Origin: a virus
Lineage: Duplodnaviria; Heunggongvirae; Uroviricota; Caudoviricetes
Length of the DNA stretch: 21,552 nucleotides
Direction: 5' to 3' (one strand)
IMG/VR virus record: IMGVR_UViG_2718218127_000003
Both the position numbers and the translations under genes were made by a program. Below are positions 224 through 21,552 of this stretch, piece after piece (within the stretch, counting starts at the first letter, position 1; every line of letters starts with the position of its first letter). Below the pieces are notes generated by a model, which made no database searches, was not told the DNA's origin, and saw only the letters and a list, made by a program, of their open reading frames with translations.

Positions 224-227
224 ATGA

Positions 228-4661: not shown

Positions 4662-4756
4662 TAATGATTAAGTAACATGGCAGGTAATCTATTTAAACCG
4701 GCCATGTTACAAATCATTGACGTAGAGAAAAAATGTAAAGTATATCCTTTATATAC

Positions 4757-5790: not shown

Positions 5791-5924
5791 GGATATTTAT
5801 CAGGATTTATCGGTTTCTGAACCCTGGATATGTTAAGCATTCAGCCCGTCAGTGGTAGGACACTGGCGCTCTGGTTAAGGATTATGGGGGATGCAGGCTG
5901 GGCTACCCCATCTGAGGATTTGAT

Positions 5925-6164
5925 ATGCAAAAAGAAGTTTTTATCAATATTACAGCTGACTGCTCATCTCCTGCATCAACAGCAAAAGAAATTGAAGCTC
6001 TTAAATATATGATTACAGTAATATTTACCGTATTGGACCAGAATGAAAAAAATGGAATCATTCATCAATTAAATGAACATGTAAATAATCCATATATCAA
6101 AAGCAATCTGGAAATGTTGCTACCAATGAAAGATATTGGAAAACCAACTGAAACAAAAGGCTAA
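5925..6164 (+). CDS. Small hypothetical protein (79 aa) inserted in the lysis cassette on the opposite strand
   Basis: ATG at 5925 is preceded by GAGGA with 6-nt spacing. The gene is AT-rich and has no recognisable family. Confidence 0.45.
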   Translation: MQKEVFINITADCSSPASTAKEIEALKYMITVIFTVLDQNEKNGIIHQLNEHVNNPYIKSNLEMLLPMKDIGKPTETKG

Positions 6165-6475
6165 CAACCCGTAATCGAGTTATCTGAACTGTTAATTTTT
6201 ATGGTATACCGCGCCTCTGAACAGGGGCGCGTTTCTGGCAACAGCTCGTCCCCTTCACATAACCCGGCAGCAACATCCAGGAAGACCTGTCTGATGCTCC
6301 TTCTGGCTGCTGCCTCATAAAACTCCAGCGCGGCACCTTCAACACGGTCCAGCGAGATGTCCAGGTCAAAAATTTCACCGTCAAAGCGTTTTTTGTCCCG
6401 TAACGCTAAAGTTACCGTAACTTTATTCTCAAAATTGCGGATCCCTTTCACAATCAGTTCATAGTTTTGAGTCAT
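6161..6475 (-). CDS. YdfR-like protein (DUF1327 family) of the Qin-type lysis cassette
   Basis: MTQNYELIVKGIRNFENKVTVTLALRDKKRFDGEIFDLDISLDRVEGAALEFYEAAARRS... ATG at 6473-6475 with GGGGAGAG upstream. It sits between holin and endolysin, as ydfR does between essQ and rrrQ. Confidence 0.7.
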   Translation of the reverse strand: MTQNYELIVKGIRNFENKVTVTLALRDKKRFDGEIFDLDISLDRVEGAALEFYEAAARRSIRQVFLDVAAGLCEGDELLPETRPCSEARYTIKINSSDNSITGC

Positions 6476-6479
6476 TGAA

Positions 6480-6695
6480 TTACTCTCCCCGTGCAGCCTT
6501 GCGCTTATCTTCTTTAATCTTGAAATAAAGGTTTGTCAGGTACGTCAGCAGGCCAAATACCAAGCTACCCAGCACACCTATTGCTGCCCACTGTGAGGGC
6601 GTGACTTTATCGAGCAGCTGTAAAAACCAGTAGCCAGCACTGCCTGCGGAGGTGCCGTAGGCAATGCCCGTTGTTAACTTATCCATGGATTTCAT
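6480..6695 (-). CDS. Class II holin, phage 21 S (pinholin)-like, with a dual-start motif
   Basis: [71 protein letters not shown], 71 aa, with Met1 and Met4 (antiholin/holin starts). Strong SD GGAGGTG. Confidence 0.85.
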
Positions 6696-6786
6696 AGCCT
6701 CACCTCCGCAAATAACGGATGGTGTACACGGTTCGGAACGAAGAGGAAAGGTATAGAAGTTACATTAGCGTAAGGCTTGAACATCT

Positions 6787-6821
6787 ATTCAAAAAGAAAA
6801 ACGCCAGCGATTATTCTGGCG
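6787..6821 (-). terminator. Intrinsic terminator downstream of the AraC-like gene and upstream of the holin
   Basis: On the minus strand: CGCCAG-aataatcg-CTGGCG followed by TTTTTCTTTTTG. Confidence 0.55.
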
Positions 6822-6888
6822 TAGCTGAAAGCATCATACAATTATCAAATACGAAAATTACAAAATCATTAAAACGCATCACGTTACA

Positions 6889-7614
6889 TCATGTCTTTTC
6901 TAAAAAAAATCTTGATGAATATTGATGGGGAGGAACACCAAAATATCTTCTGAAAACACTTACAAAATATGACGTGTTTTCATAACCGCATATCTCAGTA
7001 ACTTTTCCAACAGAATATAAATTGTAGCTTAATAACCTTTCCGCCATCACCATTCGCTCTTCAAGAATTAACTTACTAAATGATAAGCCTTCGTGCTTTA
7101 ATTTTCCTTTTAACAGACTTTCACTCAGATACAGTCTTGAAGATATATCACAAAGTCTCCATGCTGCAGATATATCCGTGTGAATAATAGCCTTAACTTT
7201 ACTTCCTAAACTATTAAGACATCCAAATAAAAAACTTTGCACTATTTTCTCTGAAGATAAGATAGCAAGACATGCAAGTGATATTTGATTTCTAACAAAA
7301 TCCACAGTTCTGCCATCACAATTCAAGCATGCAATCAAGTTCTTTAACAATGAAAAATCTTCACATTCCACCATCAAGTATGCCGGATAAAACCTTCTTA
7401 CAGAAAAAGGTGAGAGTGTGTTGCTTTTAAAGAAATCATTAACTGTTTTCTCTTCAACATCTACGATCATTGCATGATCTATATTTGATGAAAAAAAATC
7501 TTTTAAATTGTAATCAATGAGAACAGCACTTCCTTTTTTAAATAAAATATCTTCTTTACCAATTCGGACATCAAACGAGTTCAACACCAAAATGATAGAA
7601 CATATGTATGGCAT
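6889..7614 (-). CDS. AraC/XylS-family transcriptional regulator, AppY/EnvY-like (241 aa from the ATG); paralog of 228..971
   Basis: ...WRLCDISSRLYLSESLLKGKLKHEGLSFSKLILEERMVMAERLL...CGYENTSYFVSVFRRYFGVPPHQYS. ATG at 7612-7614 is preceded by AGGTGG. The gene and its 350-bp upstream region are AT-rich. Confidence 0.8.
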   Translation of the reverse strand: MPYICSIILVLNSFDVRIGKEDILFKKGSAVLIDYNLKDFFSSNIDHAMIVDVEEKTVNDFFKSNTLSPFSVRRFYPAYLMVECEDFSLLKNLIACLNCDGRTVDFVRNQISLACLAILSSEKIVQSFLFGCLNSLGSKVKAIIHTDISAAWRLCDISSRLYLSESLLKGKLKHEGLSFSKLILEERMVMAERLLSYNLYSVGKVTEICGYENTSYFVSVFRRYFGVPPHQYSSRFFLEKT

Positions 7615-7965
7615 ATTATCCACCTGATATCATTGGGGTTACACCAGGTAAGTATAGGTGGAAAATCAATATTCGCCAGTTCAACAATAAGGAAAATCTC
7701 ATTGCATCACAAGTATAAAATTATGTATTTAACTCACAAAGACAAATTATTAAACCAATCTGTTATATTATATATAGCTGCGTGGAATCATAATATTATA
7801 TATTTTGACTGGCATGTTTACCAACTTTAAGTTGCATCTCAATGGTTTCTTCAGCGTAAACAGAGTTTTTATACAAACTGACACTCTGGGTATCATAGTG
7901 TAGTTTTTACGATTGTAAATATCCTGCATGCAGGAACTCATCCTTTTGGATGATATCGCATACAA

Positions 7966-8925
7966 TTAATTTACCATCAGTCTTAGAGCCAGTTCGTCCG
8001 GATAGGGATCGAAGTAATTCTGTGTAAGCAAGTAATCATTAGGATACTCACCCAGATAATGCTTCAGCAGAGTCAACGGCGCAAGAAGAGGTAATGTGCC
8101 AGAACGATAGTTAAGTATAACCTCGCTCAACTCTTTACGCTGGCGTGTACTTAAGTAGTTACTAAAATACCCCTGTATATGCATCAGCACATTCGTGTGA
8201 TTTTTACGTGATGCAGGTTTTCTGAGAATCGCCATCAGCTTATCACGATACACCTCAAAGTATGATTCAAGGTCCGCCCACTCGTGTATTGCAGCCACAA
8301 ATGGTCCCATATCTTTATAGCCTGCCTGACTATGCGCCAACAACTGAAGCTTATAACGACTATGAAAAGCTAATAACTCTCTTCTTGATAATTTCTCCTT
8401 GTAAAGGTGATTGAGCTCATGCAAAGCAAAAACTCTTTCAACAAAATTCTCACGAAGCACTGGATCATGTAATCGCCCATCCTCTTCAACCGGTAGCCAG
8501 GAAAACTTTTCCATCAAAGTGCTCGTAAATAGTCCCACTCCATCTTTACGACCTCGATTACCATTTTCATCATAGACACGCACGCGCTCCATGCCACAGC
8601 TGGGAGATTTAGCACAAACCACAAACCCCGATACATCCTTTAATTTGTCCATATAAGAACGACTAAACTCTGTCATTCTCTCTGTCACATCCTCATTCTG
8701 GTCGTGGCTGAAACACATCCGAATATTTCCTTGCGTCGAGCGCACAAGACGTAGAGCAGGACGCGGAACTGGCAGCCCTATAGCCATTTCCGGACATACT
8801 GGTCTGAATGTTACCCATTCCACTAATTTGTCCATTAAAAAGTCAGCTCTTTTGTGACCACCATCAAAACGAACAGCAGAACCGGCCAGACAACCGCTGA
8901 TTCCAATCACAGGTTTTTTTATCAT
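7966..8925 (-). CDS. YbgA-family protein: N-terminal DUF523 (TudS-like, Cys-rich) fused to C-terminal DUF1722
   Basis: MIKKPVIGISGCLAGSAVRFDGGHK...PVCPEM...VVCAKSPSCGME carries the conserved cysteines and SPSCG motif of the DUF523/thiouracil-desulfidase family, with a helical C-terminal half. Strong SD GGGGGAGG. Confidence 0.75.
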   Translation of the reverse strand: MIKKPVIGISGCLAGSAVRFDGGHKRADFLMDKLVEWVTFRPVCPEMAIGLPVPRPALRLVRSTQGNIRMCFSHDQNEDVTERMTEFSRSYMDKLKDVSGFVVCAKSPSCGMERVRVYDENGNRGRKDGVGLFTSTLMEKFSWLPVEEDGRLHDPVLRENFVERVFALHELNHLYKEKLSRRELLAFHSRYKLQLLAHSQAGYKDMGPFVAAIHEWADLESYFEVYRDKLMAILRKPASRKNHTNVLMHIQGYFSNYLSTRQRKELSEVILNYRSGTLPLLAPLTLLKHYLGEYPNDYLLTQNYFDPYPDELALRLMVN

Positions 8926-9117
8926 ATCCTCCCCCTTGACTAATTCATTAACACATAAACTGTGTAGTGCACGGAATAAATTGCCTTTCTGGCGTCATCA
9001 CTGACAATTTTTCTGTTATGGACTATTCCTAATATAGTATGAAAGTTCTTTAAGTGATCGGTCGTAATCATCTATCTTTCATACTTACTCTCAACTATCA
9101 AAAGTACAGGATTTATT

Positions 9118-9642
9118 ATGAAGTTATGGCCTGTGTTGACTGGCATTGCACTCTCTTTCACTCTTATAGCATGTAAGGCCCCGACACCACCTAAAGGTGT
9201 GCAGCCGATTACAAATTTTGACGCCAACCGCTACCTCGGAAAGTGGTATGAAATAGCTCGCCTCGAGAACCGGTTCGAACGTGGTCTGGAACAGGTCAGC
9301 GCTACTTATGGAAAACGGAACGACGGAGGGATTCGTGTACTTAACCGTGGATACGATCCAACGAAAAATAAATGGAGCGAGAGCGAAGGTAAAGCATACT
9401 TTACTGGAGATACTAAAACTGCAGCGTTGAAGGTTTCGTTTTTTGGCCCCTTCTATGGTGGCTATAATGTAATCAAACTGGATGATGAGTATAAGTATGC
9501 TCTTGTCAGTGGTCCGAACAGAGAATACCTATGGATTCTGGCAAGGACCCCAACTATTCCAGATAAAGTAAAAGCAGACTATGTGCGAACCGCTCAAAAG
9601 TTGGGATTCAATGTCAATGAATTATTATGGGTTAAACAATAA
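9118..9642 (+). CDS. blc: Outer-membrane lipocalin lipoprotein, Blc family (paralog-like, prophage-borne)
   Basis: Lipoprotein signal MKLWPVLTGIALSFTLIAC, then ...NFDANRYLGKWYEIARLENRFERGLEQV...GKAYFTG...LKVSFFGPFYGGYNVI...YLWILARTP..., the bacterial lipocalin signature. Confidence 0.85.
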   Translation: MKLWPVLTGIALSFTLIACKAPTPPKGVQPITNFDANRYLGKWYEIARLENRFERGLEQVSATYGKRNDGGIRVLNRGYDPTKNKWSESEGKAYFTGDTKTAALKVSFFGPFYGGYNVIKLDDEYKYALVSGPNREYLWILARTPTIPDKVKADYVRTAQKLGFNVNELLWVKQ

Positions 9643-9667
9643 AATCCCTACCCGAAATAATACTTAT

Positions 9668-9697
9668 TAGAAAAAAACCAGCCTTTGGGGAGGCTGG
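9668..9697 (-). terminator. tR'-like intrinsic terminator about 100 nt downstream of Q
   Basis: On the minus strand: CCAGCCT-ccccaa-AGGCTGG followed by TTTTTTTCT. The position matches the lambda pR'-tR' unit on which Q acts. Confidence 0.55.
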
Positions 9698-9797
9698 CTA
9701 AATCAGGAAACAAGCTGTTATATGATAATAACTACGTTGCGATTCCAACATTTAAAATGTTAGACTAATGAGAATCAGACAGCAACTTTTCCTTTAA

Positions 9798-10175
9798 TTA
9801 TTTCGAACAATCAGCATCCATCTCCAATCGGAGATCCAACACCATCAGCATACCCTCCACTACGCCCTCAGCTTTCTGGAGCATCCTGCCAACCCAACAA
9901 TCAGATCGCCCATGCTTACGTGCAAGCGCCATAAAAGTCATGCCGCCGACATAATAGTCCACCAATAAATCGTGCAAATCGCTGTTGTTCTTTTTCAGAC
10001 GGGCCATGCACCCGCAAATGATCATCGCGTCATCGTCACAACATTGCGGGCGAGATTTTACTTTTGAAGGAATTAATCCCTTAAAACCGGCGGCAATGGA
10101 CGACCAGGTCACATCTTCATGATTATTAGCCGCCCATGCTCCCCAACGCTCCAGAACCATCTGAATATCACGCAT
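9798..10175 (-). CDS. Late-gene antitermination protein Q (phage 82/21 type, QuuD-like)
   Basis: [76 protein letters not shown]... The ATG at 10173-10175 is preceded by GGAG; the TTG 4 codons upstream used by the ORF track is less likely. Confidence 0.85.
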
Positions 10176-10192
10176 CAACTTTCTCCACAAAA

Positions 10193-11188
10193 TCAGGCCA
10201 GCACACCAATCGCCAGCGCACGATCGATAAAACGAAATATCAGCTCCAGCTGGGAGCCATACTTCTCTTCAAATGCCACGGTATCCGCATGCAGCTCGTC
10301 GTGATGCTTTCTGCACAAAGGCAACACAAAAAGGTCATGCGCTTTTGTACCCATTCCACCCTGACCGTGGCCTATCAGGTGATGGGGATCATCGGCGGGC
10401 TTTCCACAACATGCACACGGCTGCGTCTTAACCCAGCGCGTGTACTTTTCATTAACCCAGCGGCGACGTTTTGGGCGTAACATAAAAGACTCCGGCGACT
10501 CCGGCTCCACTTTCAGCGCCAGCACCTTTTTCGCTTTATCCTGGATGATGCTGGTGGCAGGAACCGAAGGAACAAGATCACTTTCCCGGGTGACAGACGG
10601 CACAACAGGCTTCGGTAATCTCAGTGCCTTACGGGCTGCACTTTCCGGTAAGGCATCCGCCAGGTCATTACGAACCAGCCACCAGCACAGTTCCGGCATT
10701 GTCACAACGTGACTGTCATCAAAACCGAGATCCCGACGCACGACAGACAACACCCAGCGGGCACAGTTATCCGTTGCCATTGATTCCAGCCGTTCCGTGA
10801 ACTGATCGCGCAGCTGGTTATCGCAGTGCCAGCACAGACGGATTGCGCCCGGAGCGTGTCGCATTGTGGTCATGTTCTCGCTGTGCCAGTCGGAATGAGG
10901 CCACTGGCAGCCTTTTTCACGAAGTAACCAGCTTTCAAGACATTCCACGCCACCAGCACGACGGATCACCGCCTCATTGCGGAACACAGACCGAACGGCA
11001 GGATCATCCGCCAGTGGTTGTAATGCCGCCGGAACGGCACCACTGGAAAAAGATGAATAATGTTCCGGCTCAGGCTCCAGCAGGACACGCCCCTGCATAA
11101 ACAGGGGCATCAGCTCTGAACCGGGTCTGAACAATACGATCCCCATACGCGGGGCAACTTCAGGGGTCAGTAGTGCTCTCACGGTCAC
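10193..11188 (-). CDS. DUF968-family prophage protein (YdfU-like) with a C-terminal HNH-like Cys/His motif
   Basis: C-terminus ...[47 protein letters not shown]. It lies immediately upstream of Q, as ydfU does in Qin. The start is GTG and uncertain. Confidence 0.7.
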
Positions 11189-11189
11189 C

Positions 11190-11763
11190 TCAATGAACGG
11201 TATCGAGCAGCTTTAACAGCTCAGGGAATCGGGATTCGAAGAAATGCGGCTGCGTCTCGCGCGGATTTGCGGGACTGGTGATATTCTTGCCGAACATGCA
11301 GCCTTTCGCTGTCAGCGACCAGAATTTTTTGATGTTGTTAATCGCGGTACGGCTGTATCGTTCGCGCTGCTCGACGATCCCCAGCTTCACCATCTGGTGA
11401 TATGCCTGATTAGCTGTCAGGCGGATACCATACTGCTTCAGCAGTGCACTCAGTGACAGCGTGGGGCGGCTTGAGCCATCAGGCGCGTCAGCAGGAGCAT
11501 CAATGGCATAGCGCGGTGCCAGATTCGGTACCCTGGCGACGCGCCTTACGCGTTAACCAGCCTTCTGCTTCCAGCCGTGCGATAGCCGTCCTGACGGTAC
11601 TCATCCCCGCGCCAATCTGACGGGCAATAGTTTCAATTGATGGCCAGCACACACCTTCGTCATTACTGAAATCAGCCAGGCGGGCCATAATTGCCACGCT
11701 GGATAATTTCATGCCTGATGCAGCGCAACCATCCCATACATAGCCGGTTAATTTAGTGCTCAT
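11190..11763 (-). pseudogene. Helix-turn-helix phage protein (replication/regulatory-like), apparently frameshifted near 11500-11520
   Basis: The 87-aa ORF (MSTKLTGYVWDGC...RLEAEGWLTRKARRQG) stops at 11500, and protein-like sequence continues in another frame (RYAIDAPADAPDGSSRPTLSLSALLKQYGIRLTANQAYHQMVKLGIVEQ...) into the 67-aa ORF ending at 11190. Confidence 0.5.
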
Positions 11764-12111
11764 GACCGACCTCTATTTCCCTGAATTTACGACGAAACTG
11801 TTCGAGCGGGCTGAAGCACTCATGCTCATAGCCTTCGCGGAGGTAGATAACTCGTTGTGTTTCCGGCTCCCAACGAATGACTCTGACGGGCACTCCGTAG
11901 TGATCTTTGAACCAGCGGTTAACTTGTCGCAAAGGACTGTCTCCTTCTGCCGGTTGAAATCACCCACAGCCCACTCAGCAAAGCTGTGGGTTACAATTTC
12001 CCTGTCACCTGGTACATTAACTGCATAGCAATACTCCACCTTCGCTTTTCCACCCGGTACAGGAAGCGCAATCAGTTGCGAGCGACGGTAGTGTGTTGTT
12101 AAACTGTTCAT
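11753..12111 (-). pseudogene. Hypothetical phage early protein, frameshifted near 11940-11975
   Basis: The N-terminal frame ([50 protein letters not shown]) then degrades, while another frame gives protein-like ...[62 protein letters not shown], whose stop overlaps the next ATG. Confidence 0.5.
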
Positions 12112-12671
12112 GCGTTAGTTTCTCCACAGTCACGACACGCCACGGCGCCCGGAGCTGCACACTCGCGGGCGTCATTACTTTCTGAAATGCAAAAGATTTT
12201 GTAGACCAGTGCTGCATGCTCCTGCAGCTTCGAAATTGAGAGATACAGCTCGTCGTTAATTGCTGTCTTCTCATGCGGTTCCACTACACCGTCTTCGATT
12301 GCTGAACGAATCTGTTTTGAATAACTGCCGATCTGTTCAATGACTTCCAGCAGACGCTGGTTAATATCGGCGTTGTCCACATCCTCGACGTCAGGAAGAG
12401 ACACAAAGACGCCATTTGCAGACTGCGCCACAGCGTCAGCAATGAAGTGAGTTCCACCAGCACGTTGCAAAATCATTGCCCATCCCAGCGGGAAAATCTG
12501 ATCGCCATCGGCACGAAGGCGGTTAAATAATGCGTTCTCTGTTACATCCAGCCAGTCAGCCGCTTCAGCGTAACCACCCGGCAACGCCGCGATAGTTTTT
12601 CTGACAGCTTTCACGTACCACTCAGGCTGTTTTTCTATTTTCCAGTGATGCTTACCCACGATTAGCCTCAT
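12108..12671 (-). CDS. Phage regulatory protein, CII-like / YdaT-like, downstream of cro
   Basis: 187 aa with ATG at 12669-12671. Its stop overlaps the next gene start (ATGA). It is second in the pR-side operon after cro, as ydaT/cII are. Confidence 0.6.
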
Positions 12672-12702
12672 CGTTCTGTGGTTAAAAATTGAAAGTGTTC
12701 TG

Positions 12703-12903
12703 CTAATCTTTCGGATAGATATCCGGTCTTAAGTCAGATTTCGTAATTGCACCTGACGTGCATTGCTCAAGTTTTTTAGCCAGCACAAAACTGGCTTTTT
12801 TATAGCCATTGAAAACCAGCCGTAAGTAGCCAGGTGTTGAGCCAACTTTTCCGGCCAACTCGCCCTGCTGTTCTTTGGTTAAAGAGTCCCAATACGCTTT
12901 CAT
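12703..12903 (-). CDS. Cro-like HTH regulator (YdaS family), 66 aa
   Basis: MKAYWDSLTKEQQGELAGKVGSTPGYLRLVFNGYKKASFVLAKKLEQCTSGAITKSDLRPDIYPKD. ATG at 12901-12903 with SD GGAGGT. Divergent from the cI-like gene. Confidence 0.8.
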   Translation of the reverse strand: MKAYWDSLTKEQQGELAGKVGSTPGYLRLVFNGYKKASFVLAKKLEQCTSGAITKSDLRPDIYPKD

Positions 12904-12906
12904 ACA

Positions 12907-12978
12907 ATATGTACCTCCGGTGTACATATTACATGATTGAAATGAACCTTCAAGATACTTGTACCTTAACGGTACAAG
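12907..12978. promoter_or_regulatory. Immunity operator/promoter region (oR-like) with two palindromes between cro and cI
   Basis: ATATGTAC-ctccggt-GTACATAT (12907-12929) and CTTGTACC-ttaac-GGTACAAG (12958-12978) share the half-site (A/T)TGTACC. Confidence 0.5.
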
Positions 12979-12993
12979 GGTTTTAATTTCGTT

Positions 12994-13668
12994 ATGAAAA
13001 CAATCCATGACATCCGGCGGTCTAACGCCAGAAAACTGAGAGATGGTGTTGGCGGGAATTCTTCCTTTGCCACTATGATTGATCGCGAGCCAACCCAGAC
13101 CAGCAGGTTTATGGGAGATGGTGCTACTAAAAATATCGGTGACAGCATGGCACGACACATCGAAAAATGTTTCGACCTGCCTGTCGGATGGCTCGATCAA
13201 GAACACCAGACAACGAACATCACAAAAAAACCTGATGTTTCAATCACTAATAAACAAATCACATTAGTCCCTGTCATATCATGGGTACAGGCCGGAGCAT
13301 GGAAAGAAGTTGGATATTCTGAGGTTGATTTGAGCACAGCAGAAACGTATCCCTGCCCTGTACCCTGTGGGGAAATGACTTATATCTTGCGGGTGATAGG
13401 TGATTCAATGATTGATGAGTACCGCCCGGGAGACATGATTTTTGTCGATCCTGAAGTACCTGCCTGCCACGGTGACGACGTTATTGCATTGATGCACGAT
13501 ACAGGTGAAACCACCTTCAAAAGGTTGATAGAAGATGGGACACAGCGTTATCTCAAAGCGTTAAACCCAAACTGGCCTGAGCCTTACATTAAGATCAACG
13601 GTAATTGCTCTATAATTGGAACTGTGATTTTCTCAGGAAAACCAAGAAGATACAAAATCAAAGCCTAA
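12994..13668 (+). CDS. cI-like prophage repressor: N-terminal HTH, C-terminal S24 (LexA-like) autopeptidase
   Basis: The C-terminal domain has an AG cleavage site (VQAG/AW), the GDSM serine motif and a downstream Lys (TFKRL). The ATG has almost no SD, consistent with a leaderless pRM-type transcript. Confidence 0.85.
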   Translation: MKTIHDIRRSNARKLRDGVGGNSSFATMIDREPTQTSRFMGDGATKNIGDSMARHIEKCFDLPVGWLDQEHQTTNITKKPDVSITNKQITLVPVISWVQAGAWKEVGYSEVDLSTAETYPCPVPCGEMTYILRVIGDSMIDEYRPGDMIFVDPEVPACHGDDVIALMHDTGETTFKRLIEDGTQRYLKALNPNWPEPYIKINGNCSIIGTVIFSGKPRRYKIKA

Positions 13669-13688
13669 TCAATGTTTATGAACCTGCT

Positions 13689-13712
13689 TCGGCAGGTTTT
13701 TTTATACTTGAC
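13689..13712 (+). terminator. Intrinsic terminator after the cI-like gene
   Basis: AACCTGC-ttcg-GCAGGTT followed by TTTTTTT. Confidence 0.6.
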
Positions 13713-13715
13713 AAT

Positions 13716-13749
13716 GTACCTTTGAGATACATAATGTACCCAAGAGAAA
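13716..13749 (+). promoter_or_regulatory. pL-like promoter overlapped by an operator palindrome
   Basis: TTGACA-N16-CATAAT. The spacer contains ATGTACC-tttga-GATACAT (13722-13740), the same half-site and 5-bp spacing as the oR palindromes, plus a further ATGTACC at 13742-13748. Confidence 0.5.
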
Positions 13750-13816
13750 CAACAAACAGGCAGGACGCCCACGAAGTATCCGCCTGGGGCATATGAAGTC
13801 CAGGATGATTCGTTAG

Positions 13817-13846
13817 CAACAAAAAAGCGCCCTACAGGACGCTTAG
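13817..13846 (-). terminator. Intrinsic terminator downstream of the 173-aa gene
   Basis: On the minus strand: AAGCG-tcctgtaggg-CGCTT followed by TTTTGTTG. Confidence 0.45.
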
Positions 13847-13885
13847 CTCTTTAACAATCTGGGTATCATCCAACCAATGCAAGAT

Positions 13886-14407
13886 TTAAGGAATCCAAGG
13901 CGAATTCAGATCTCGCCCCAACTCACGTAATGATCTTGGTCGTTCGTACATCGGATTTTTTTCCATAAGAAATTTATTTTCACAGTGAAGGCAACGGCTT
14001 GTAAGAAAATGAGAAGTTTTACCTACTGGAAGCGGATGAAGTATCGATTTTATATTTTTGGAATAACAAAGTGGGCACAGATGCACAGTTATTTCTTTTC
14101 CACTCACAATTTCATTTTTAGAGTAAACAAAAGCACCAGAGTCAAGCTGATCAAGGACATATCCTTCTACCTTGGCACAAAAATCTTCAAACTCTGCAAT
14201 TTTTGCTTTGAGATGCATCACCTCTTCATCACGAAGGCGGATCGCATCGCCAAGAGAGAAGCATTCTGCCTGAAGCGTGATTAGTTTGTTCTGGAGTTCA
14301 ATGGTTGCAGCTTTAACTTCTGCATCCGTTTTCGCGTCATTAATAACCTTAGCAAGACCGGCAGTCTCCTTTATAGCGGCCATAGCCGCAGACAGTTCAG
14401 CTATCAC
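13886..14407 (-). CDS. Hypothetical protein, 173 aa: N-terminal coiled coil and C-terminal CxxC-X22-CxxC zinc-ribbon-like motif
   Basis: ...HLCPLCYSKNIKSILHPLPVGKTSHFLTSRCLHCENKF. The gene is AT-rich, convergent with cI, and has its own terminator. The start is uncertain (GTG at 14405-14407 or the ATG 8 codons in). Confidence 0.55.
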   Translation of the reverse strand: MIAELSAAMAAIKETAGLAKVINDAKTDAEVKAATIELQNKLITLQAECFSLGDAIRLRDEEVMHLKAKIAEFEDFCAKVEGYVLDQLDSGAFVYSKNEIVSGKEITVHLCPLCYSKNIKSILHPLPVGKTSHFLTSRCLHCENKFLMEKNPMYERPRSLRELGRDLNSPWIP

Positions 14408-14876
14408 GTTGAATACTCAGCTAGTTGTTGGGGATATCCAGATTAACCAAATCCTTGTTGTTGGGGAATAACTAGGTCCACCTCGCCTGATGTGGCTAAA
14501 AGCAGGCACATAACAGCTAAGTATTTTCAACCAGAGAGAATCCTTAGCGTTGTGGTGAATGCGGCTCAGCGCACGCGGGTTAAGGTTGAGGCTGACAGTC
14601 GACCTTCTGTGGATACCCACCCGCCTGGTGTGCAACCTTCGCCAGGCACCGGGAGGCACCCGGCACCACAACTTTATGCTGTGTGTAGTCCTGGCGGTAT
14701 CAGCTTGTACCCTTGCTTCCGGCTGGTACCGTCCTTTTTACAAAACAGAGAAGAGCATCACCGGACGACGGGCTCATAACCCAATCCATCCGGGCGGCTG
14801 CCACCGCAGGTGTTCTTCTCTGTTTTGTGGAGAAACCAACCGACCCTGCAGGGTCGATATGATGGGGAGCAGCAAA

Positions 14877-15239
14877 ATGGCTAGCGAACGCAGTACTGAT
14901 GTGCAGGCATTTATCGGGGAGCTGGACGGCGGCGTATTTGAAACCAAAATCGGCGCAGTTCTCAGTGAAGTCGCTTCCGGTGTGATGAACACGAAAACCA
15001 AAGGTAAGGTCTCGCTCAACCTGGAAATCGAACCGTTTGATGAGAACCGTGTAAAAATCAAACACAAACTCTCATATGTTCGCCCGACTAACCGCGGGAA
15101 AATTTCCGAAGAAGACACCACCGAAACGCCGATGTATGTCAATCGCGGTGGTCGCCTGACTATTCTGCAGGAAGACCAGGGACAATTACTGACTCTTGCC
15201 GGTGAACCTGACGGAAAACTCCGCGCAGCAGGTCGTTAA
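14877..15239 (+). CDS. YfdP-like prophage protein (120 aa)
   Basis: MASERSTDVQAFIGELDGGVFETKIGAVLSEV... ATG at 14877 is preceded by GGGGAG with 7-nt spacing. The upstream in-frame extension is GC-rich and low-complexity and is rejected. Confidence 0.7.
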   Translation: MASERSTDVQAFIGELDGGVFETKIGAVLSEVASGVMNTKTKGKVSLNLEIEPFDENRVKIKHKLSYVRPTNRGKISEEDTTETPMYVNRGGRLTILQEDQGQLLTLAGEPDGKLRAAGR

Positions 15240-15304
15240 TATCGTTTTTAATAAACTGATTATTTATCTCATCACTGAATATCTTTATATAGTGAGGACT
15301 TATT

Positions 15305-16129
15305 ATGTCTCAGAACTTAGACGCAACCGCAATTAATCAAATCCATGCCCTTATTTCTGCTCAGGGTGTTAATGAAATTATCAGTAAGATTGGTGCCGAT
15401 GCTGTGGCATTGCCTGAGAATTTCCGCATTCATGATCTGGAAAAATTTAATTTAAATCGCTTCCGTTTCCGTGGTGCGCTTTCCACTGCCAGCATCGATG
15501 ACTTTACCCGTTATTCTAAAGATCTTGCAGATGAAGGCACCCGCTGCTTTATCGATGCTGATAATATGCGAGCCGTCAGTATGCTTAACCTGGGTACTAT
15601 TGATGAACCAGGTCACGCAGATAACACCGCCACTCTCAAACTGAAAAAGACAGCACCGTTCTCTGCCCTGTTGTCTGTTAACGGCGAGCGTAACTCCCAG
15701 AAGTCACTGGCAGAATGGATTGAAGACTGGGCCGACTACCTTGTGGGCTTTGATGCTAATGGTGACGCCATTCAGGCAACAAAAGCGGCTGCGGCGGTCC
15801 GTAAAATCACGATTGAAGCAAACCAGACCGCTGATTTTGAAGACAATGACTTCAGCGGCAAACGCTCTCTGATGGAGTCTGTCGAAGCGAAAACCAAAGA
15901 CATTATGCCAGTAGCATTTGAGTTTAAATGCGTTCCGTTTGAAGGCCTGAAAGAACGTCCGTTTAAATTACGCCTCAGCATTATCACTGGTGATCGCCCT
16001 GTACTGGTTCTGCGCATTATTCAGCTGGAAGCAGTGCAGGAAGAAATGGCTAACGAATTTCGTGATCTGCTTGTTGAAAAATTCAAAGACAGCAAAGTAG
16101 AAACCTTTATTGGTACTTTCACCGCCTGA
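15305..16129 (+). CDS. YfdQ-like prophage protein (DUF2303 family), 274 aa
   Basis: Good SD (TGAGGA). The size and position match yfdQ in the CPS-53-type early-left module. Confidence 0.75.
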
Positions 16130-16141
16130 TTTCATTACTGC

Positions 16142-16166
16142 AAATGCCCCTGCGGGGGCATTTATG
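16142..16166 (+). terminator. Strong stem-loop between the yfdQ-like and yfdR-like genes (possible attenuator or partial terminator)
   Basis: AAATGCCCC-tgcg-GGGGCATTT, a 9-bp GC-rich stem, followed by AT-rich sequence but no clean U-run. Confidence 0.3.
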
Positions 16167-16256
16167 GAAACGTAATTAACTCAATAATCGCCTGATGGCG
16201 AGGGTTTTCTTTAACCAAAATTCAGCGCGGTGCAGCGCATATACGTGGAGAACAAA

Positions 16257-16793
16257 ATGTCATTTATTAAAACTTTTTCCGGGAAGCATTTTTATTATGA
16301 CAGGATAAATAAAGACGACATCGATATTAACGATATCGCGGTTTCCCTTTCAAATATCTGTCGCTTTGCCGGTCATCTTTCGCACTTCTACAGCGTCGCC
16401 CAACATGCGGTTCTTTGCAGCCAGCTGGTGCCGCAGGAATTTGCTTTTGAAGCGTTAATGCATGATGCAACAGAAGCGTATTGCCAGGACATTCCCGCAC
16501 CACTGAAACGCCTTCTTCCTGACTATAAACAAATGGAAGAAAAAATAGACGCCGTAATCCGTGAGAAATACGGGTTACCCCCAGTTATGAGTACGCCCGT
16601 GAAATATGCCGATCTCATCATGCTGGCAACCGAACGCCGCGATCTCGGGCTTGATGATGGCTCTTTCTGGCCTGTACTGGAAGGTATCCCGGCAACAGAG
16701 ATGTTCAACGTGATTCCACTGGCACCGGGCCATGCCTACGGGATGTTTATGGAACGCTTTAACGAGTTATCGGAGTTACGCAAATGCGCATGA
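16257..16793 (+). CDS. HD-domain phosphohydrolase, YfdR-like (5'-deoxynucleotidase family), 178 aa
   Basis: ...FAGHLSHFYSVAQHAVLCSQL...ALMHDATEAYCQDIPAPLK... is an HD motif. ATG at 16257 with GGAG upstream; the GTG at 16230 used by the ORF track is less likely. Confidence 0.8.
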   Translation: MSFIKTFSGKHFYYDRINKDDIDINDIAVSLSNICRFAGHLSHFYSVAQHAVLCSQLVPQEFAFEALMHDATEAYCQDIPAPLKRLLPDYKQMEEKIDAVIREKYGLPPVMSTPVKYADLIMLATERRDLGLDDGSFWPVLEGIPATEMFNVIPLAPGHAYGMFMERFNELSELRKCA

Positions 16794-17146
16794 ATGTTTT
16801 CGAAATGGAAGGGTTTCTTCGTGGGAGATGTGTACCGCGAGATCTGAAAGTAAATGAAACAGATGCTGAATACCTGGTGCGTAAATTCGATGCGCTTGAA
16901 GCTAAATGTGCAGCACAGGAAAACAAAGTAATACCAGTGTCAACTGAACTGCCACCAGCAAATGAAAGTGTTTTGTTATTCGATGCTAACGGAGAAGGCT
17001 GGCTAATTGGCTGGCGTTCTCTCTGGTACACCTGGGGACAAAAAGAAACCGGAGAATGGCAGTGGACATTTCAGGTCGGGGACCTTGAAAACGTCAATAT
17101 CACTCACTGGGCAGTAATGCCAAAAGCACCGGAGGCTGGAGCATAA
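16784..17146 (+). CDS. DUF551-family prophage protein (YfdS-like), 120 aa
   Basis: C-terminal Trp-rich segment ...GEGWLIGWRSLWYTWGQKETGEWQWTF... SD GGAG. Overlaps its neighbours, consistent with an operon. Confidence 0.75.
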   Translation: MRMNVFEMEGFLRGRCVPRDLKVNETDAEYLVRKFDALEAKCAAQENKVIPVSTELPPANESVLLFDANGEGWLIGWRSLWYTWGQKETGEWQWTFQVGDLENVNITHWAVMPKAPEAGA

Positions 17147-17475
17147 TGACCACTTTTACCGACAAAGAACTGATTAAAGAAATTAAAGAGCGTATCAGCA
17201 GCCTTGACGTGCGAGACGATATTGAGCGCCGTGCTTATGAAATCGCACTCCTATCTCTGGAAGTAGAACCAGATGAACGCGAAGCTTATGAATTATTCAT
17301 GGAAAAGCGTTTCGGTGACTTAGTAGATCGTCGGAGAGCAAAAAACGGCAATAACGAATACATGGCATGGGATATGACTCTCGGTTGGATCGTCTGGCAG
17401 CAACGAGCTGGTATCCATTTTTCAACAATGTCACTGAATCGCCACGGGTTTAACAGACACCTCAGAGTCATTTAA
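17146..17475 (+). CDS. YfdT-like prophage protein; the 3' end is probably altered by the IS insertion at about 17435
   Basis: ATG overlaps the upstream stop (TAATG), with SD GGAGG. The last ~14 codons are read from the IS terminal repeat. Confidence 0.6.
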   Translation: MTTFTDKELIKEIKERISSLDVRDDIERRAYEIALLSLEVEPDEREAYELFMEKRFGDLVDRRRAKNGNNEYMAWDMTLGWIVWQQRAGIHFSTMSLNRHGFNRHLRVI

Positions 17476-17497
17476 GATGGCTTAAAGAGAGGTGCCC

Positions 17498-17748
17498 ATG
17501 AGCGGTAAGCGTTATCCCGAAGAGTTTAAAACTGAAGCAGTCAAACAGGTTGTTGATCGCGGTTATTCTGTTGCCAGCGTTGCAACACGTCTCGATATCA
17601 CCACCCACAGCCTTTATGCCTGGATAAAGAAGTACGGTCCGGATTCTTCCACTAATAAAGAACAGTCAGATGCTCAGGCCGAGATCCGCCGTCTCCAGAA
17701 AGAGCTGAAACGGGTTACCGACGAACGGGACATATTAAAAAAAGCCGC
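17498..17748 (+). pseudogene. IS3-family OrfA (HTH), interrupted by IS30; the last 9 codons resume at 18972-18999
   Basis: MSGKRYPEEFKTEAVKQVVDRGYSVASVATRLDITTHSLYAWIKKYG...ILKKAA, then after IS30 AYFAKLSD*. Confidence 0.8.
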
Positions 17749-18969
17749 TGTAGATTCAATTGGTCAACGCAACAGTTATGTGAAAACATGGGGTTGCGGA
17801 GGTTTTTTGAATGAGACGAACATTTACAGCAGAGGAAAAAGCCTCTGTTTTTGAACTATGGAAGAACGGAACAGGCTTCAGTGAAATAGCGAATATCCTG
17901 GGTTCAAAACCCGGAACGATCTTCACTATGTTAAGGGATACTGGCGGCATAAAACCCCATGAGCGTAAGCGGGCTGTAGCTCACCTGACACTGTCTGAGC
18001 GCGAGGAGATACGAGCTGGTTTGTCAGCCAAAATGAGCATTCGTGCGATAGCTACTGCGCTGAATCGCAGTCCTTCGACGATCTCACGTGAAGTTCAGCG
18101 TAATCGGGGCAGACGCTATTACAAAGCTGTTGATGCTAATAACCGAGCCAACAGAATGGCGAAAAGGCCAAAACCGTGCTTACTGGATCAAAATTTACCA
18201 TTGCGAAAGCTTGTTCTGGAAAAGCTGGAGATGAAATGGTCTCCAGAGCAAATATCAGGATGGTTAAGGCGAACAAAACCACGTCAAAAAACGCTGCGAA
18301 TATCACCTGAGACAATTTATAAAACGCTGTACTTTCGTAGCCGTGAAGCGCTACACCACCTGAATATACAGCATCTGCGACGGTCGCATAGCCTTCGCCA
18401 TGGCAGGCGTCATACCCGCAAAGGCGAAAGAGGTACGATTAACATAGTGAACGGAACACCAATTCACGAACGTTCCCGAAATATCGATAACAGACGCTCT
18501 CTGGGGCATTGGGAGGGCGATTTAGTCTCAGGTACAAAAAACTCTCATATAGCCACACTTGTAGACCGAAAATCACGTTATACGATCATCCTTAGACTCA
18601 GGGGCAAAGATTCTGTCTCAGTAAATCAGGCTCTTACCGACAAATTCCTGAGTTTACCGTCAGAACTCAGAAAATCACTGACATGGGACAGAGGAATGGA
18701 ACTGGCCAGACATCTAGAATTTACTGTCAGCACCGGCGTTAAAGTTTACTTCTGCGATCCTCAGAGTCCTTGGCAGCGGGGAACAAATGAGAACACAAAT
18801 GGGCTAATTCGGCAGTACTTTCCTAAAAAGACATGTCTTGCCCAATATACTCAACATGAACTAGATCTGGTTGCTGCTCAGCTAAACAACAGACCGAGAA
18901 AGACACTGAAGTTCAAAACACCGAAAGAGATAATTGAAAGGGGTGTTGCATTGACAGATTGAATCTACA
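17749..18969 (+). mobile_element. IS30, complete (1221 bp) with a 2-bp GC target duplication
   Basis: Ends TGTAGATTCAATTGGTCAACGC... and ...GACAGATTGAATCTACA. GC is present on both flanks. Confidence 0.9.
17811..18962 (+). CDS. insI: IS30 transposase (383 aa)
   Basis: MRRTFTAEEKASVFELWKNGTGFSEIANILGSKPGTIFTMLRDTGG... through the DDE domain to the IS30 end. Confidence 0.9.
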   Translation: MRRTFTAEEKASVFELWKNGTGFSEIANILGSKPGTIFTMLRDTGGIKPHERKRAVAHLTLSEREEIRAGLSAKMSIRAIATALNRSPSTISREVQRNRGRRYYKAVDANNRANRMAKRPKPCLLDQNLPLRKLVLEKLEMKWSPEQISGWLRRTKPRQKTLRISPETIYKTLYFRSREALHHLNIQHLRRSHSLRHGRRHTRKGERGTINIVNGTPIHERSRNIDNRRSLGHWEGDLVSGTKNSHIATLVDRKSRYTIILRLRGKDSVSVNQALTDKFLSLPSELRKSLTWDRGMELARHLEFTVSTGVKVYFCDPQSPWQRGTNENTNGLIRQYFPKKTCLAQYTQHELDLVAAQLNNRPRKTLKFKTPKEIIERGVALTD

Positions 18970-19055
18970 GCGGCGTACTTCGCAAAGCTGTCCGACTGAG
19001 GTACGCCTTTATCCGTGACAACTCCTGTTGCTGGCCTGTTCGCCTGCTCTGTCGG

Positions 19056-19868
19056 GTGCTGGATGTTCATCCCAGTGGTTTTTACGCCTGGCTTCAGCAG
19101 CCGCATTCACAACGCCATCAGGCAGACCTGAGACTGACAGGACAGATTAAACAGTTCTGGCTGGAATCGGGATGCGTCTATGGTTATCGCAAAATCCATC
19201 TGGATTTGCGTGACAGCGGGCAACAGTGCGGAGTAAACAGAGTCTGGAGACTGATGAAACGTGTCGGAATAAAGGCTCAGGTCGGATACCGAAGCCCGCG
19301 GGCACGTAAAGGCGAGGCCAGTATCGTGTCACCCAACAGGCTCCAGCGACAGTTCAATCCGGATGCTCCTGATGAGCGTTGGGTAACGGACATAACCTAC
19401 ATCAGGACCCACGAAGGCTGGCTGTATCTTGCCGTTGTTGTTGATCTGTTCTCACGCAAAATTATCGGCTGGTCCATGCAATCCCGGATGACAAAGGACA
19501 TTGTCCTGAACGCACTGCTGATGGCTGTATGGCGGCGTAATCCCGAAAAACAGGTGCTGGTTCATTCGGATCAGGGCAGTCAGTACACAAGCCATGAGTG
19601 GCAGTCGTTCCTGAAATCACACGGCCTGGAGGGTAGCATGAGCCGTCGCGGTAACTGCCATGATAATGCGGTTGCAGAAAGTTTTTTCCAGTTGTTGAAA
19701 CGTGAACGGATAAAGAAAAAGATCTACGGAACGCGGGAAGAAGCCCGCAGTGATATTTTTGATTACATCGAAATGTTTTATAACAGTAAGCGTCGGCATG
19801 GTTCTAGCGAACAGATGTCACCGACAGAATATGAAAACCAGTATTATCAACGGCTCGGAAGTGTCTAG
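19056..19868 (+). CDS. IS3-family OrfB transposase (rve/DDE domain); the 5' part overlaps orfA and is normally reached by a -1 frameshift
   Basis: ...WVTDITYIRTHEGWLYLAVVVDLFSRKIIGWSM...LVHSDQGSQYTS...GNCHDNAVAESFF... Confidence 0.85.
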   Translation: MLDVHPSGFYAWLQQPHSQRHQADLRLTGQIKQFWLESGCVYGYRKIHLDLRDSGQQCGVNRVWRLMKRVGIKAQVGYRSPRARKGEASIVSPNRLQRQFNPDAPDERWVTDITYIRTHEGWLYLAVVVDLFSRKIIGWSMQSRMTKDIVLNALLMAVWRRNPEKQVLVHSDQGSQYTSHEWQSFLKSHGLEGSMSRRGNCHDNAVAESFFQLLKRERIKKKIYGTREEARSDIFDYIEMFYNSKRRHGSSEQMSPTEYENQYYQRLGSV

Positions 19869-19964
19869 ATTATCCGTGGCGATTCACTTCTCAGTGAGAA
19901 GGCCTTATTTGTATTGTTTCAAAAAATTACTAAAATGCAGTTTCGTTACGCAATTTTCTATAGA

Positions 19965-21221
19965 TTACTGATAGTCATCAGCAAGTCCGCTACTAAATAA
20001 CGTTTCTGCATTTTCAGCGGTAGCAACAGCATCCTGCACATCCTGCCGTTTCAAATCTAACACTCGTAATTTACCCTTTACTTCGGCGACAGATTCGATT
20101 CGCCTGTAAGCATCAGAATGATGTTCGGCATATAGCGCAAGTCCTTCCAGTTTGGGCAAAGCATCAGCCAGATGTAGGCTATGTGGATCTACCAGGTCCA
20201 CAACCATTTTGCCATCCTGTTCGGCAAAGAACAGGAAATCGGGACGAACAATCTTGTACTGTTCAGCTTCAACATAAGCGATTCCCAGTGACGACTGCCC
20301 TGTGTACTGTGGATTACGATACCAGAAAGCAAATCCTTCACGTTTGGTTTCGATCTCAAAAACCTTGGTTTCCCAATGGTTCAACAGAGCCGGATAGTTC
20401 CCGCTTTCGTCACACAACAAATGGTGTTTCCAGACTGGAAGGTCAGCTTCCTTTTCACCTTCACGCACCCTGGTCATTTCAAACTTGTTCGCCGGCCTGA
20501 CCAGATCCACATCCTGCGGTTCGGTACTCATTTCGACGATTTGACGATAGGCCTCTTTACGCTCATCTTTCAACGACTTGATTTGCGGTGTGTACTCGGC
20601 CAGCCACGCCTTCGCCAGTCTATCGGCCTCGCCATCGAAGTAATCCTGCACCTCCATCACCAGCCCCATGCCAGCAACGGTAACACGAGCCTCCATGATT
20701 GCTTCCAGATATTCCTCTGCATCCTCTTCTCGATCCGCAACCTTATCGGCCAGATATTCGACATAGGTACGTGAAACATCCGGGCTGAAAATTCGGGCTG
20801 CACGCCGGTAGGCGTCATCAATCACCGTTACGTCCGCCTCCTCCCAGAATTCGTTGAAGGTCATTGCTTTGTTCTTGAGGCTGGCAACCACAGCCTTACC
20901 ATCTACGACGAGCACTGCATTGCGTTTGTTTTTGATTTTCTCGGCATTTTCTATCTGGAACTTGTCCAGAACAGCGTGCAAAGCAGCATGGGCTTTCCTG
21001 ACTGCCCCATCAAGAATACCGTCATCAACCAGTTCCTGTGCCAGCGCGGTCAGACGTCTGGCGGGTCTGGCTCCTTTCTGTGGTCGGGTTTGCGAAGGTA
21101 GCGCTTCAAATGCTTCCCATACTTCAGCTGAAGCAGCCGGGTTAGGTTTCATCTCCACAGGGTTAACCAGGATGCGTCCGCTTGGAGGAGAGGTATCATC
21201 GCCCTTAAACAAGGTATTGAC
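19965..21221 (-). pseudogene. 3' portion (at least 415 codons) of a large gene of unknown function; the 5' part is separated or removed by the IS1 insertion
   Basis: The reading frame is open right up to the IS1 left inverted repeat at 21222, where the only in-frame stop lies inside IS1. The first codon in the ORF track is TTG, with no credible start. The C-terminal region ...YKIVRPDFLFFAEQDGKMVVDLVDPHS... is faintly nuclease-like. Confidence 0.55.
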
Positions 21222-21552
21222 GGTGATGCTGCCAACTTACTGATTTAGTGTATGATGGTGTTTTTGAGGTGCTCCAGTGGCTTCTGTTTCTATCAGCTGT
21301 CCCTCCTGTTCAGCTACTGACGGGGTGGTGCGTAACGGCAAAAGCACTGCCGGACATCAGCGCTATCTCTGCTCTCACTGCCGTAAAACATGGCAACTGC
21401 AGTTCACTTACACCGCTTCTCAACCCGGTACGCACCAGAAAATCATTGATATGGACATGAATGGCGTTGGATGCCGGGCAACCGCCCGCATTATGGGCGT
21501 TGGCCTCAACACGATTTTCCGCCATTTAAAAAACTCAGGCCGCAGTCGGTAA
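21222..21552 (+). mobile_element. IS1, left end and insA; truncated by the window edge
   Basis: Left inverted repeat GGTGATGCTGCCAACTTACTGATTTAGTGTATGATGGTG begins at 21222. Confidence 0.85.
21277..21552 (+). CDS. insA: IS1 InsA (91 aa)
   Basis: [59 protein letters not shown]..., with a GTG start as in IS1. Confidence 0.9.

What the first reader, a model, noticed from the sequence alone, without database searches (positions are those of the whole stretch)
19965..21221. Large gene of unknown function truncated at its 5' side by IS1
An ORF of at least 415 codons stays open right up to the IS1 inverted repeat, so IS1 has split a larger gene. The missing N-terminal portion would sit beyond the IS1 copy outside the window, if it still exists. 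The retained part ends in a segment (...FAFWYRNPQYTGQSSLGIAYVEAEQYKIVRPDFLFFAEQDGKMVVDLVDPHS...) that loosely recalls the PD-(D/E)xK nuclease-like C-terminal domains of helicase-nuclease defence proteins, but I cannot place it in a family. Because it lies past the IS-damaged prophage end, it may belong to a separate defence or accessory island inactivated by IS1.
Basis: inference. Interest (0 to 1): 0.5.

Follow-up and report, generated by a model that had tools for sequence, protein, structure and literature searches.

The report
IS1-truncated restriction enzyme gene remnant (yagJ)
This is the dead 3' half of a restriction-enzyme gene, the longer form of the E. coli K-12 pseudogene yagJ in cryptic prophage CP4-6, cut off by an IS1 element; it is an ordinary, already catalogued relic.

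Summary
On the minus strand, 418 sense codons plus a stop (19965-21221) run without interruption up to the IS1 inverted repeat at 21222. The ORF is yagJ (b0276) of cryptic prophage CP4-6, in a form 142 codons longer than the K-12 copy.

Intact homologues are 855-871 aa SF2 ATPases with a ResIII domain, GAGKT and DEAH motifs, and a C-terminal Pfam PF27151 'YagJ' region. Each lies directly downstream of a ~707-aa methyltransferase that matches a Type III Mod model end to end (E 2.6e-291). The window keeps only residues 440-857. All ATPase motifs and the mod gene are gone.

The same IS1 junction occurs in at least 61 complete E. coli genomes. In the four checked, the far side of IS1 carries afuB' or argF, never the 5' half of res. 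K-12 has a deeper IS1 junction, which fits nested IS1 deletions.

Verdict: an inactivated Type III-like restriction gene. It is a known entity of low interest.

The parts
19965..21221 (-). Remnant of a Type III-like restriction subunit gene (res; yagJ allele): codons 440-857 of an 857-codon gene, plus the TAA stop at 19965-19967
   Evidence: 99.8% aa identity to residues 440-857 of the intact gene in E. coli 2273-PO3 (L005:8178-10751) and 94% to that of STEC17-190. Only 2 nt differ from the 2273-PO3 allele. The K-12 yagJ region is 100% identical over its shorter 830 nt.
20532..21065 (-). All-helical middle region of the remnant (fragment residues ~53-230; full-length ~492-669), with no recognisable structural relative
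19968..20519 (-). C-terminal nuclease-like domain with the restriction-endonuclease (PD-(D/E)xK) fold (fragment residues 235-418; full-length 674-857)
20181..20246 (-). Candidate active-site strands: R765-P766-D767 ... D781-x-x-D784-P785-H786 (fragment R326-P-D328 ... D342, D345, P346, H347)
   Evidence: D767, D781, D784 and H786 are invariant in 42 full-length homologues, P785 in at least 90%; all are present in the window. The assignment to PD...(D/E)xK positions is inferred from the strand order in the model.
19887..19964 (-). 78 bp of native 3' flank of res, ending inside the res/yagK intergenic hairpin (GGCCTTCTCACTGAGAAGGCC), where the IS3-family element abuts
   Evidence: The alignment with K-12 and Mixta tenebrionis is identical up to ...GAGAAG and then diverges into the IS end TGAATCGCCACGG. 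The terminator-like hairpin is reported at 19887-19901.
21222..21552 (+). IS1, left end (IRL and insA), cut by the end of the window; it forms the 5' truncation point of res
   Evidence: Sequence read; insA ORF at 21277-21552. The identical junction is annotated as an IS1A/IS1B transposase in H7, ECONIH4 and E. coli C.
17435..19886 (+). IS3-family element bounding the remnant on its 3' side, itself interrupted by an IS30 copy at 17750-18970
   Evidence: Inverted repeats at 17435-17472 / 19849-19886 and at 17744-17774 / 18944-18974. ORFs: orfA at 17492, the 383-aa IS30 transposase at 17811-18962, orfB at 19056-19868.

Best explanation
The ORF is the 3' half (codons 440-857) of the res gene of a two-gene mod-res restriction-modification system of the Type III kind. 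The system was once carried by the CP4-6 integrative element, and the remnant is the gene known in E. coli K-12 as yagJ.

How the intact system works is inferred from established knowledge of Type III systems. A beta-class N6-adenine methyltransferase (Mod; DPPY before FxGxG) recognises and methylates a short asymmetric site. The 857-aa Res subunit binds Mod. Res uses its N-terminal SF2 ATPase (GAGKT, DEAH, QLLGR) to communicate between sites, and its C-terminal PD-(D/E)xK-fold domain to cut unmethylated DNA.

In this window an IS1 element abuts codon 440. The mod gene, the promoter, the start codon and every ATPase motif are gone. What remains is a helical region plus the nuclease-like domain. 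This remnant cannot find targets or be activated, so it is an inert pseudogene.

The loss most likely came from IS1-promoted adjacent deletion or IS1-IS1 recombination rather than a simple insertion. That step is inferred.
For: Identity
- The fragment is 99.8% identical to residues 440-857 of an intact 857-aa 'DEAD/DEAH box helicase'.
- It is 100% identical to K-12 yagJ over the K-12 part.
- Homologues carry Pfam PF27151, named YagJ.

System
- The intact gene overlaps by 4 bp the stop of a 707-aa N6_N4 methyltransferase. That methyltransferase matches PADLOC MTase_III model PDLC03645 over 1-704 of 709 positions, E 2.6e-291.
- Res has the Pfam ResIII domain (E 2e-12) plus a sub-threshold Helicase_C match, and weak REase_III hits. 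The motifs were located.
- Of 80 loci from different species, 69 have an intact 855-871 aa Res and 71 have Mod directly upstream. No third gene is conserved.

Nuclease domain
- The invariant acidic, His and Lys residues are all retained in the window.

Origin in CP4-6
- In H7 and K-12 the remnant is followed by yagK-yagL-yagM.
- Mixta tenebrionis keeps intact mod-res-yagK-yagL-yagM, with Res 98% identical.

Deletion rather than insertion
- At least 61 complete E. coli genomes share the identical junction.
- Across the IS1 lies afuB' or the argF side.
- K-12 has an IS1 in the same orientation 426 bp deeper in the gene.
Against: - No sequence-level similarity to any solved structure was found, with either the single protein or a 42-sequence profile. 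Kinship to the characterised Type III Res proteins therefore rests on domain architecture and the Mod partner.
- The PADLOC REase_III matches are weak (33 bits or less) and cover only helicase motif VI.
- No member of this clade has been tested for restriction, as far as my searches show.
- The remnant has accumulated no stop codons or frameshifts, so inactivity is inferred from the missing parts, not from decay.
- What lies beyond IS1 in the source genome itself is outside the window.
Confidence: 0.9

Rival explanations
1. IS1 made a simple insertion that split an otherwise complete res gene. The 5' half and mod would sit immediately beyond this IS1 copy, outside the window, and the gene could be restored by precise excision.
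For: The window ends 331 bp into IS1, so the far side cannot be read. The remnant is undecayed, with 2 nt differences from an intact allele.
Against: Four genomes with the identical junction carry afuB'-fbpC-mmuM or the argL-argF side across the IS1, never res. The genome closest to the left 16.7 kb of the window runs from the prophage into an IS1 fragment and then afuB'. A second, nested IS1 junction in K-12 points to progressive deletion.
Confidence: 0.04
2. The remnant is not inert. The helical and nuclease domains are expressed, for example from a hybrid promoter at the IS1 end or from an internal start as in the annotated 243-aa K-12 YagJ. They act as a stand-alone nuclease or regulator and are retained by selection.
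For: The reading frame is intact over 418 codons and all invariant nuclease-domain residues are kept. Remnants of this gene occur in 392 of 5426 complete E. coli genomes. RefSeq annotates them as proteins.
Against: No sigma-70-like promoter was found at the IS1-proximal end on the minus strand. The only minus-strand sites are internal (20573-20544) or downstream of the stop. Different lineages keep different pieces: 440-857, 582-857, and 440-551 in E. coli C. This argues against selection for any one product. Near-identity within E. coli is expected from recent common ancestry. Type III Res subunits need Mod for DNA binding (established knowledge of the family).
Confidence: 0.05
3. The parental two-gene module is not a restriction-modification system of the Type III kind. 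It would be another methyltransferase-plus-helicase-nuclease defence or DNA-processing system with a different mechanism.
For: Res has no detectable sequence similarity to solved Res structures. It gives only marginal REase_III model hits, has a ~180-residue helical region without structural relatives, and has a non-canonical nuclease motif.
Against: Mod matches a Type III Mod model end to end. The gene order mod-res with overlapping stop and start, the ResIII domain, the C-terminal endonuclease-fold domain and the absence of further conserved genes are all the Type III pattern. JGI annotates many members as 'type III restriction enzyme'.
Confidence: 0.08

Closest known systems
E. coli K-12 yagJ (b0276), cryptic prophage CP4-6; Pfam PF27151 'YagJ'
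   Same: It is the same gene. The DNA is 100% identical over the 830 nt that K-12 retains, with the same 3' flank and an IS1 in the same orientation at the 5' side.
   Different: The window allele keeps 418 codons (residues 440-857), against 276 in K-12 (582-857). Its IS1 junction lies 426 bp further upstream. On the 3' side, yagK is replaced by an IS3-family element.
Type III restriction-modification Res subunits (EcoP1I/EcoP15I type; Pfam ResIII PF04851)
   Same: In the intact homologues: mod-res gene order with overlapping genes, a beta-class N6-adenine Mod, an N-terminal SF2 ATPase with Walker A and DEAH, and a C-terminal restriction-endonuclease-fold domain.
   Different: About 110 residues shorter than EcoP15I Res (970 aa, from memory). 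No sequence match to any solved chain, even with a profile. A family-specific helical region precedes the nuclease domain. The motif reads PD...D-x-x-D-P-H...K instead of PD...ExK. No member has been tested experimentally. The window copy lacks the ATPase half and Mod altogether.
Archaeal Holliday junction resolvase Hjc, RecU and TnsA (minimal PD-(D/E)xK nucleases)
   Different: Sequence identity is 6-16%. This is a fold-level resemblance only, and here the domain is the tail of an ATPase rather than a free-standing dimeric resolvase.

Membership tests
yagJ / Pfam PF27151 (YagJ) | Sequence match to the family, and orthology with K-12 b0276 in its CP4-6 context | tested here: met
   All 120 listed homologues carry PF27151, and the family name YagJ appears. 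The fragment is 100% identical to the K-12 yagJ region. yagK-yagL-yagM follow in H7, K-12 and Mixta. The local Pfam copy lacks this model, so the fragment itself gave no Pfam hit.
Type III R-M Res subunit | N-terminal SF2 helicase-like ATPase (ResIII domain, Walker A, DEAH, motif VI) | tested here: met
   Met in intact homologues: ResIII E 2.2e-12, GAGKT at 43, DEAH at 176, QLLGR at 401. Helicase_C is below the Pfam cut-off (19.4 bits against 23.5). It is NOT met in the window copy, which starts at residue 440.
Type III R-M Res subunit | C-terminal PD-(D/E)xK endonuclease domain | tested here: inconclusive
Type III R-M system | Partner Mod methyltransferase (beta-class N6-adenine, PF01555) encoded immediately upstream in one operon | tested here: met
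   Met for the family: full-length match to PADLOC MTase_III PDLC03645, E 2.6e-291; N6_N4_Mtase; DPPY at 166 before FSGSG at 489; a 4-bp overlap with res; Mod is upstream in 71 of 80 loci. It is absent from the window.
Type III R-M Res subunit | Detectable sequence homology to characterised Res proteins (EcoP15I and relatives) | tested here: not met
   phmmer and a 42-sequence profile against all PDB chains gave no hit at E<=1 and E<=10 respectively. PADLOC REase_III models match only about 70 residues around motif VI, at 33 bits or less.
Type III R-M system | ATP-dependent cleavage requiring two inversely oriented unmethylated sites; hemimethylation of an asymmetric site | not testable with these tools
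   This needs biochemistry or a methylome of a strain with the intact pair.
IS1 insertion (simple transposition) | 9-bp target duplication, with the interrupted gene continuing on the other side | not testable with these tools
   The far end of IS1 is outside the window. In relatives with the identical junction, the far side is afuB' or argF-side DNA.

The most novel reading that the evidence does not exclude
The YagJ-type Res proteins (about 1000 clusters at 50% identity, from Proteobacteria to Acidobacteria and Nitrospira) may form an uncharacterised branch of Type III-like restriction enzymes. The features that set them apart are a nuclease active site that uses an invariant D-P-H plus a helix-borne Lys instead of ExK, and a ~180-residue helical module that has no structural relative. 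If these reflect a different mode of activation or cleavage, the family would be a new mechanistic variant. The window would then hold a natural 'nuclease-only' fragment of it.
Probability: 0.12. Interest if true: 0.45.

Novelty: already known. Interest (0 to 1): 0.12.

Why it matters
The value is mainly in annotation. RefSeq labels these remnants 'hypothetical protein' or 'protein YagJ'. They are in fact 5'-truncated res pseudogenes of a mod-res restriction system that CP4-6-type islands once carried. The nested IS1 junctions (residue 440 here, residue 582 in K-12) and the piece left in E. coli C give a clear example of stepwise IS-driven erosion of a defence island. Nothing here challenges current understanding.

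Tried and rejected
- Pfam, NCBIfam and PADLOC scans of the 418-aa fragment gave only noise, because the local Pfam copy predates PF27151.
- NCBIfam on the intact Res and Mod gave nothing useful.
- Sequence searches of the PDB with the full-length protein, the fragment profile and a 42-sequence full-length profile found nothing. The single hit was a chance match at E 1.3.
- A second AlphaFold model of a 730-aa homologue (P0040) was meant for comparing the whole enzyme with EcoP15I Res. It came out at pLDDT 63 with the N-terminal 136 residues unmodelled, so it was not used.
- The afdb50 fold library was unavailable.
- The promoter scan found no convincing outward promoter at the IS1 end.
- Literature searches for yagJ, and for CP4-6 with type III restriction, found no functional study.
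- The 80-nt probe for the K-12-type junction was confounded by two-piece matches in window-type genomes. The K-12-type count (352 minus about 61) is therefore only approximate.
- I considered that the lambdoid prophage and the remnant were joined by a large rearrangement and rejected it. Strain MB06022 shows that the same prophage sits at the CP4-6 chromosomal locus, between paoD/yagP and afuB'.

Full report
**Observation**

On the minus strand, a TAA stop at 19965-19967 is preceded by 418 sense codons. They run without interruption to 21221. At 21222 the IS1 left inverted repeat begins (GGTGATGCTGCCAACTTACTGAT), followed by insA from 21277. The window ends 331 bp into IS1.

The TTG 'start' at 21212 in the ORF list is only the first start-type codon after a stop inside IS1.

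**Identity**

A megablast of 19880-21221 against complete E. coli genomes found the segment in 392 of 5426 genomes, usually annotated 'hypothetical protein'. In strain H7 it lies between yagK-yagL-yagM and an IS1. That is the position of yagJ (b0276) in the K-12 cryptic prophage CP4-6.

The K-12 yagJ region is 100% identical to the window but shorter. There, IS1C abuts the gene 426 bp further in, leaving 276 codons, of which RefSeq annotates 243. Protein homologues carry Pfam PF27151, which the context tool names 'YagJ'. My local Pfam copy predates that model, which explains the empty Pfam, NCBIfam and PADLOC scans of the fragment.

**The intact gene**

A metagenome contig extended the protein upstream. 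That led to E. coli genomes with a complete 2574-bp gene annotated 'DEAD/DEAH box helicase'.

- The window fragment is 99.8% identical to residues 440-857 of the 857-aa protein of strain 2273-PO3, with 2 nt differences.
- It is 94% identical to the protein of STEC17-190.

The intact protein has a ResIII domain (E 2e-12) and a sub-threshold Helicase_C match. Its motifs are GAGKT at residue 43, DEAH at 176 and QLLGR at 401. All of these lie upstream of residue 440, so they are missing from the window.

In 80 loci from different species, 69 have an intact Res of 855-871 aa, all starting MKFTLKDYQ. This excludes a true start inside the window ORF.

**The system**

In STEC17-190 the gene overlaps by 4 bp the end of a 707-aa methyltransferase. 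That protein is an N6_N4 methyltransferase with DPPY (166) before FSGSG (489). It matches the PADLOC Type III Mod model PDLC03645 from end to end (E 2.6e-291).

Mod lies directly upstream of Res in 71 of the 80 loci. Most of the nine exceptions lack the upstream sequence, through contig ends or truncation. The clear exception is L065, which has an intact Res and full upstream flank but no detectable Mod.

Clustering of all flanking ORFs found no third conserved gene. The only recurrent neighbours were integrases and resolvases, which fits carriage on integrative islands. This is the architecture of a Type III restriction-modification system, and JGI annotates many members as 'type III restriction enzyme'.

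The link to characterised Res proteins is architectural only. No solved chain is matched by sequence, even with a 42-sequence profile. PADLOC REase_III models match only about 70 residues around motif VI.

**The retained part**

An AlphaFold model of the 418 residues, built with 66 aligned sequences, has a mean pLDDT of 89.4. It shows three parts:

- a short beta element;
- an all-helical region (residues ~53-230);
- an alpha/beta domain (~235-418).

Residues invariant in 42 full-length homologues are E723, E730, R765-P766-D767, D781, D784, H786, D792 and K796. All are present in the window. From the strand order in the model, D767 opens the second core strand and D784-P-H786 sits where (D/E)xK is expected. 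K796 is on the following helix. This register is my inference.

The domain alone recovers 1048 clusters at 50% identity. In the full-length proteins it lies at the C-terminus of 830-990 aa chains.

**How the truncation arose**

An 80-nt probe across the junction is fully matched in 61 complete E. coli genomes, including E. coli C. The junction is therefore inherited, not private to this window.

Across that IS1, the related genomes carry other DNA:

- H7, mip270_04 and ECONIH4 carry a 5'-truncated afuB followed by fbpC and mmuM.
- E. coli C carries the argL-argF side.

None carries the res 5' half. Strain MB06022 matches the first 16.7 kb of the window at 100%. It runs from the same prophage into an IS1 fragment and then afuB'.

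K-12 has an IS1 in the same orientation but deeper in the gene. Together, these findings fit IS1-promoted adjacent deletion or IS1-IS1 recombination better than a simple insertion. I cannot read the far side of IS1 in the source genome itself.

A decay series is visible:

1. Intact mod-res-yagK-yagL-yagM in Mixta tenebrionis, with Res 98% identical, and intact mod-res in STEC17-190.
2. Mod broken by a transposon but res intact in 2273-PO3.
3. Res residues 440-857 in this window.
4. Res residues 582-857 in K-12.
5. Res residues 440-551 in E. coli C.

**Surroundings**

The native 3' flank continues for 78 bp and stops inside the res/yagK intergenic hairpin. There an IS3-family element (17435-19886) abuts it. 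That element is itself interrupted by IS30 at 17750-18970.

The CP4-6-derived DNA in the window is therefore a 1335-bp islet between two IS ends. To the left lies a lambdoid prophage remnant with yfdP/yfdQ-type genes. In MB06022 this prophage occupies the CP4-6 chromosomal locus next to paoD/yagP.

**Function of the remnant**

Without Mod, a promoter, a start codon and the ATPase, the remnant cannot work as a restriction enzyme. No sigma-70-like promoter was found at the IS1-proximal end on the coding strand.

The frame is undecayed. However, the different pieces kept in different lineages argue against selection for a product. I rate a residual stand-alone function at about 5%.

**Comparison and novelty**

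The feature is a longer allele of a named K-12 pseudogene in a curated Pfam family. Its parental system has the standard Type III layout. I found no paper that discusses yagJ function.

The only mildly open point is that this Res clade is untested and diverges from EcoP15I-type Res in its nuclease motif and in a helical insert. That concerns the family, not this window. I score interest at 0.12 and novelty as 'already known'.

Noticed in passing
window 17435-19886 (IS30 at 17750-18970): An IS3-family element (38-nt imperfect inverted repeats, TGAATCGCCACGG...) has an IS30 copy inserted in the 3' end of its orfA. This splits orfA from orfB, so the IS3-family element is itself disabled.
   Followed up: partly
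window 1-17434; L091 (E. coli MB06022): The lambdoid prophage remnant left of the finding (lysis genes, Q antiterminator, ymfK/L/T-like and yfdP/Q-like genes) sits in MB06022 at the CP4-6 chromosomal locus, between paoD/yagP and IS1-afuB'. In this lineage the prophage seems to have replaced the intF-yagK part of CP4-6. The yagJ remnant is the last CP4-6 relic on that side.
   Followed up: partly
L005:4208-8178 (E. coli O15:H12 2273-PO3): This strain has a second, intact res copy (857 aa, 2 nt from the window allele over the shared part). Its mod gene is broken by an ISPpu12 transposon carrying lspA, a cation transporter and cadR, and lacks its first ~510 codons. The result is an orphan Res without its methyltransferase.
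   Followed up: partly
L004:719-2336 (metagenome contig ERZ1754951 NODE_1336): Another decay form of the same allele: res residues 1-42 are joined to residue ~327 onward, an internal deletion of about 284 codons. A mod 3' tail and an IS3-family transposase lie upstream.
   Followed up: partly
L089:3672-4080 (E. coli C): E. coli C keeps the window-type IS1 junction, but only res codons 440-551. An IS3 copy removes the rest from the 3' side, and the 99-aa leftover is annotated as a hypothetical protein.
   Followed up: partly
L009:3519-10686 (Mixta tenebrionis BIT-26): An Erwiniaceae genome carries intact mod-res followed by yagK (97% aa), yagL (94%) and yagM (81%). The CP4-6-type module has therefore moved recently between Escherichia and Mixta.
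   Followed up: partly
L065:5663-8254: One locus has an intact full-length Res and a full upstream flank, but no detectable Mod homologue. It may be another orphan Res or may have a replaced methyltransferase.
   Followed up: no
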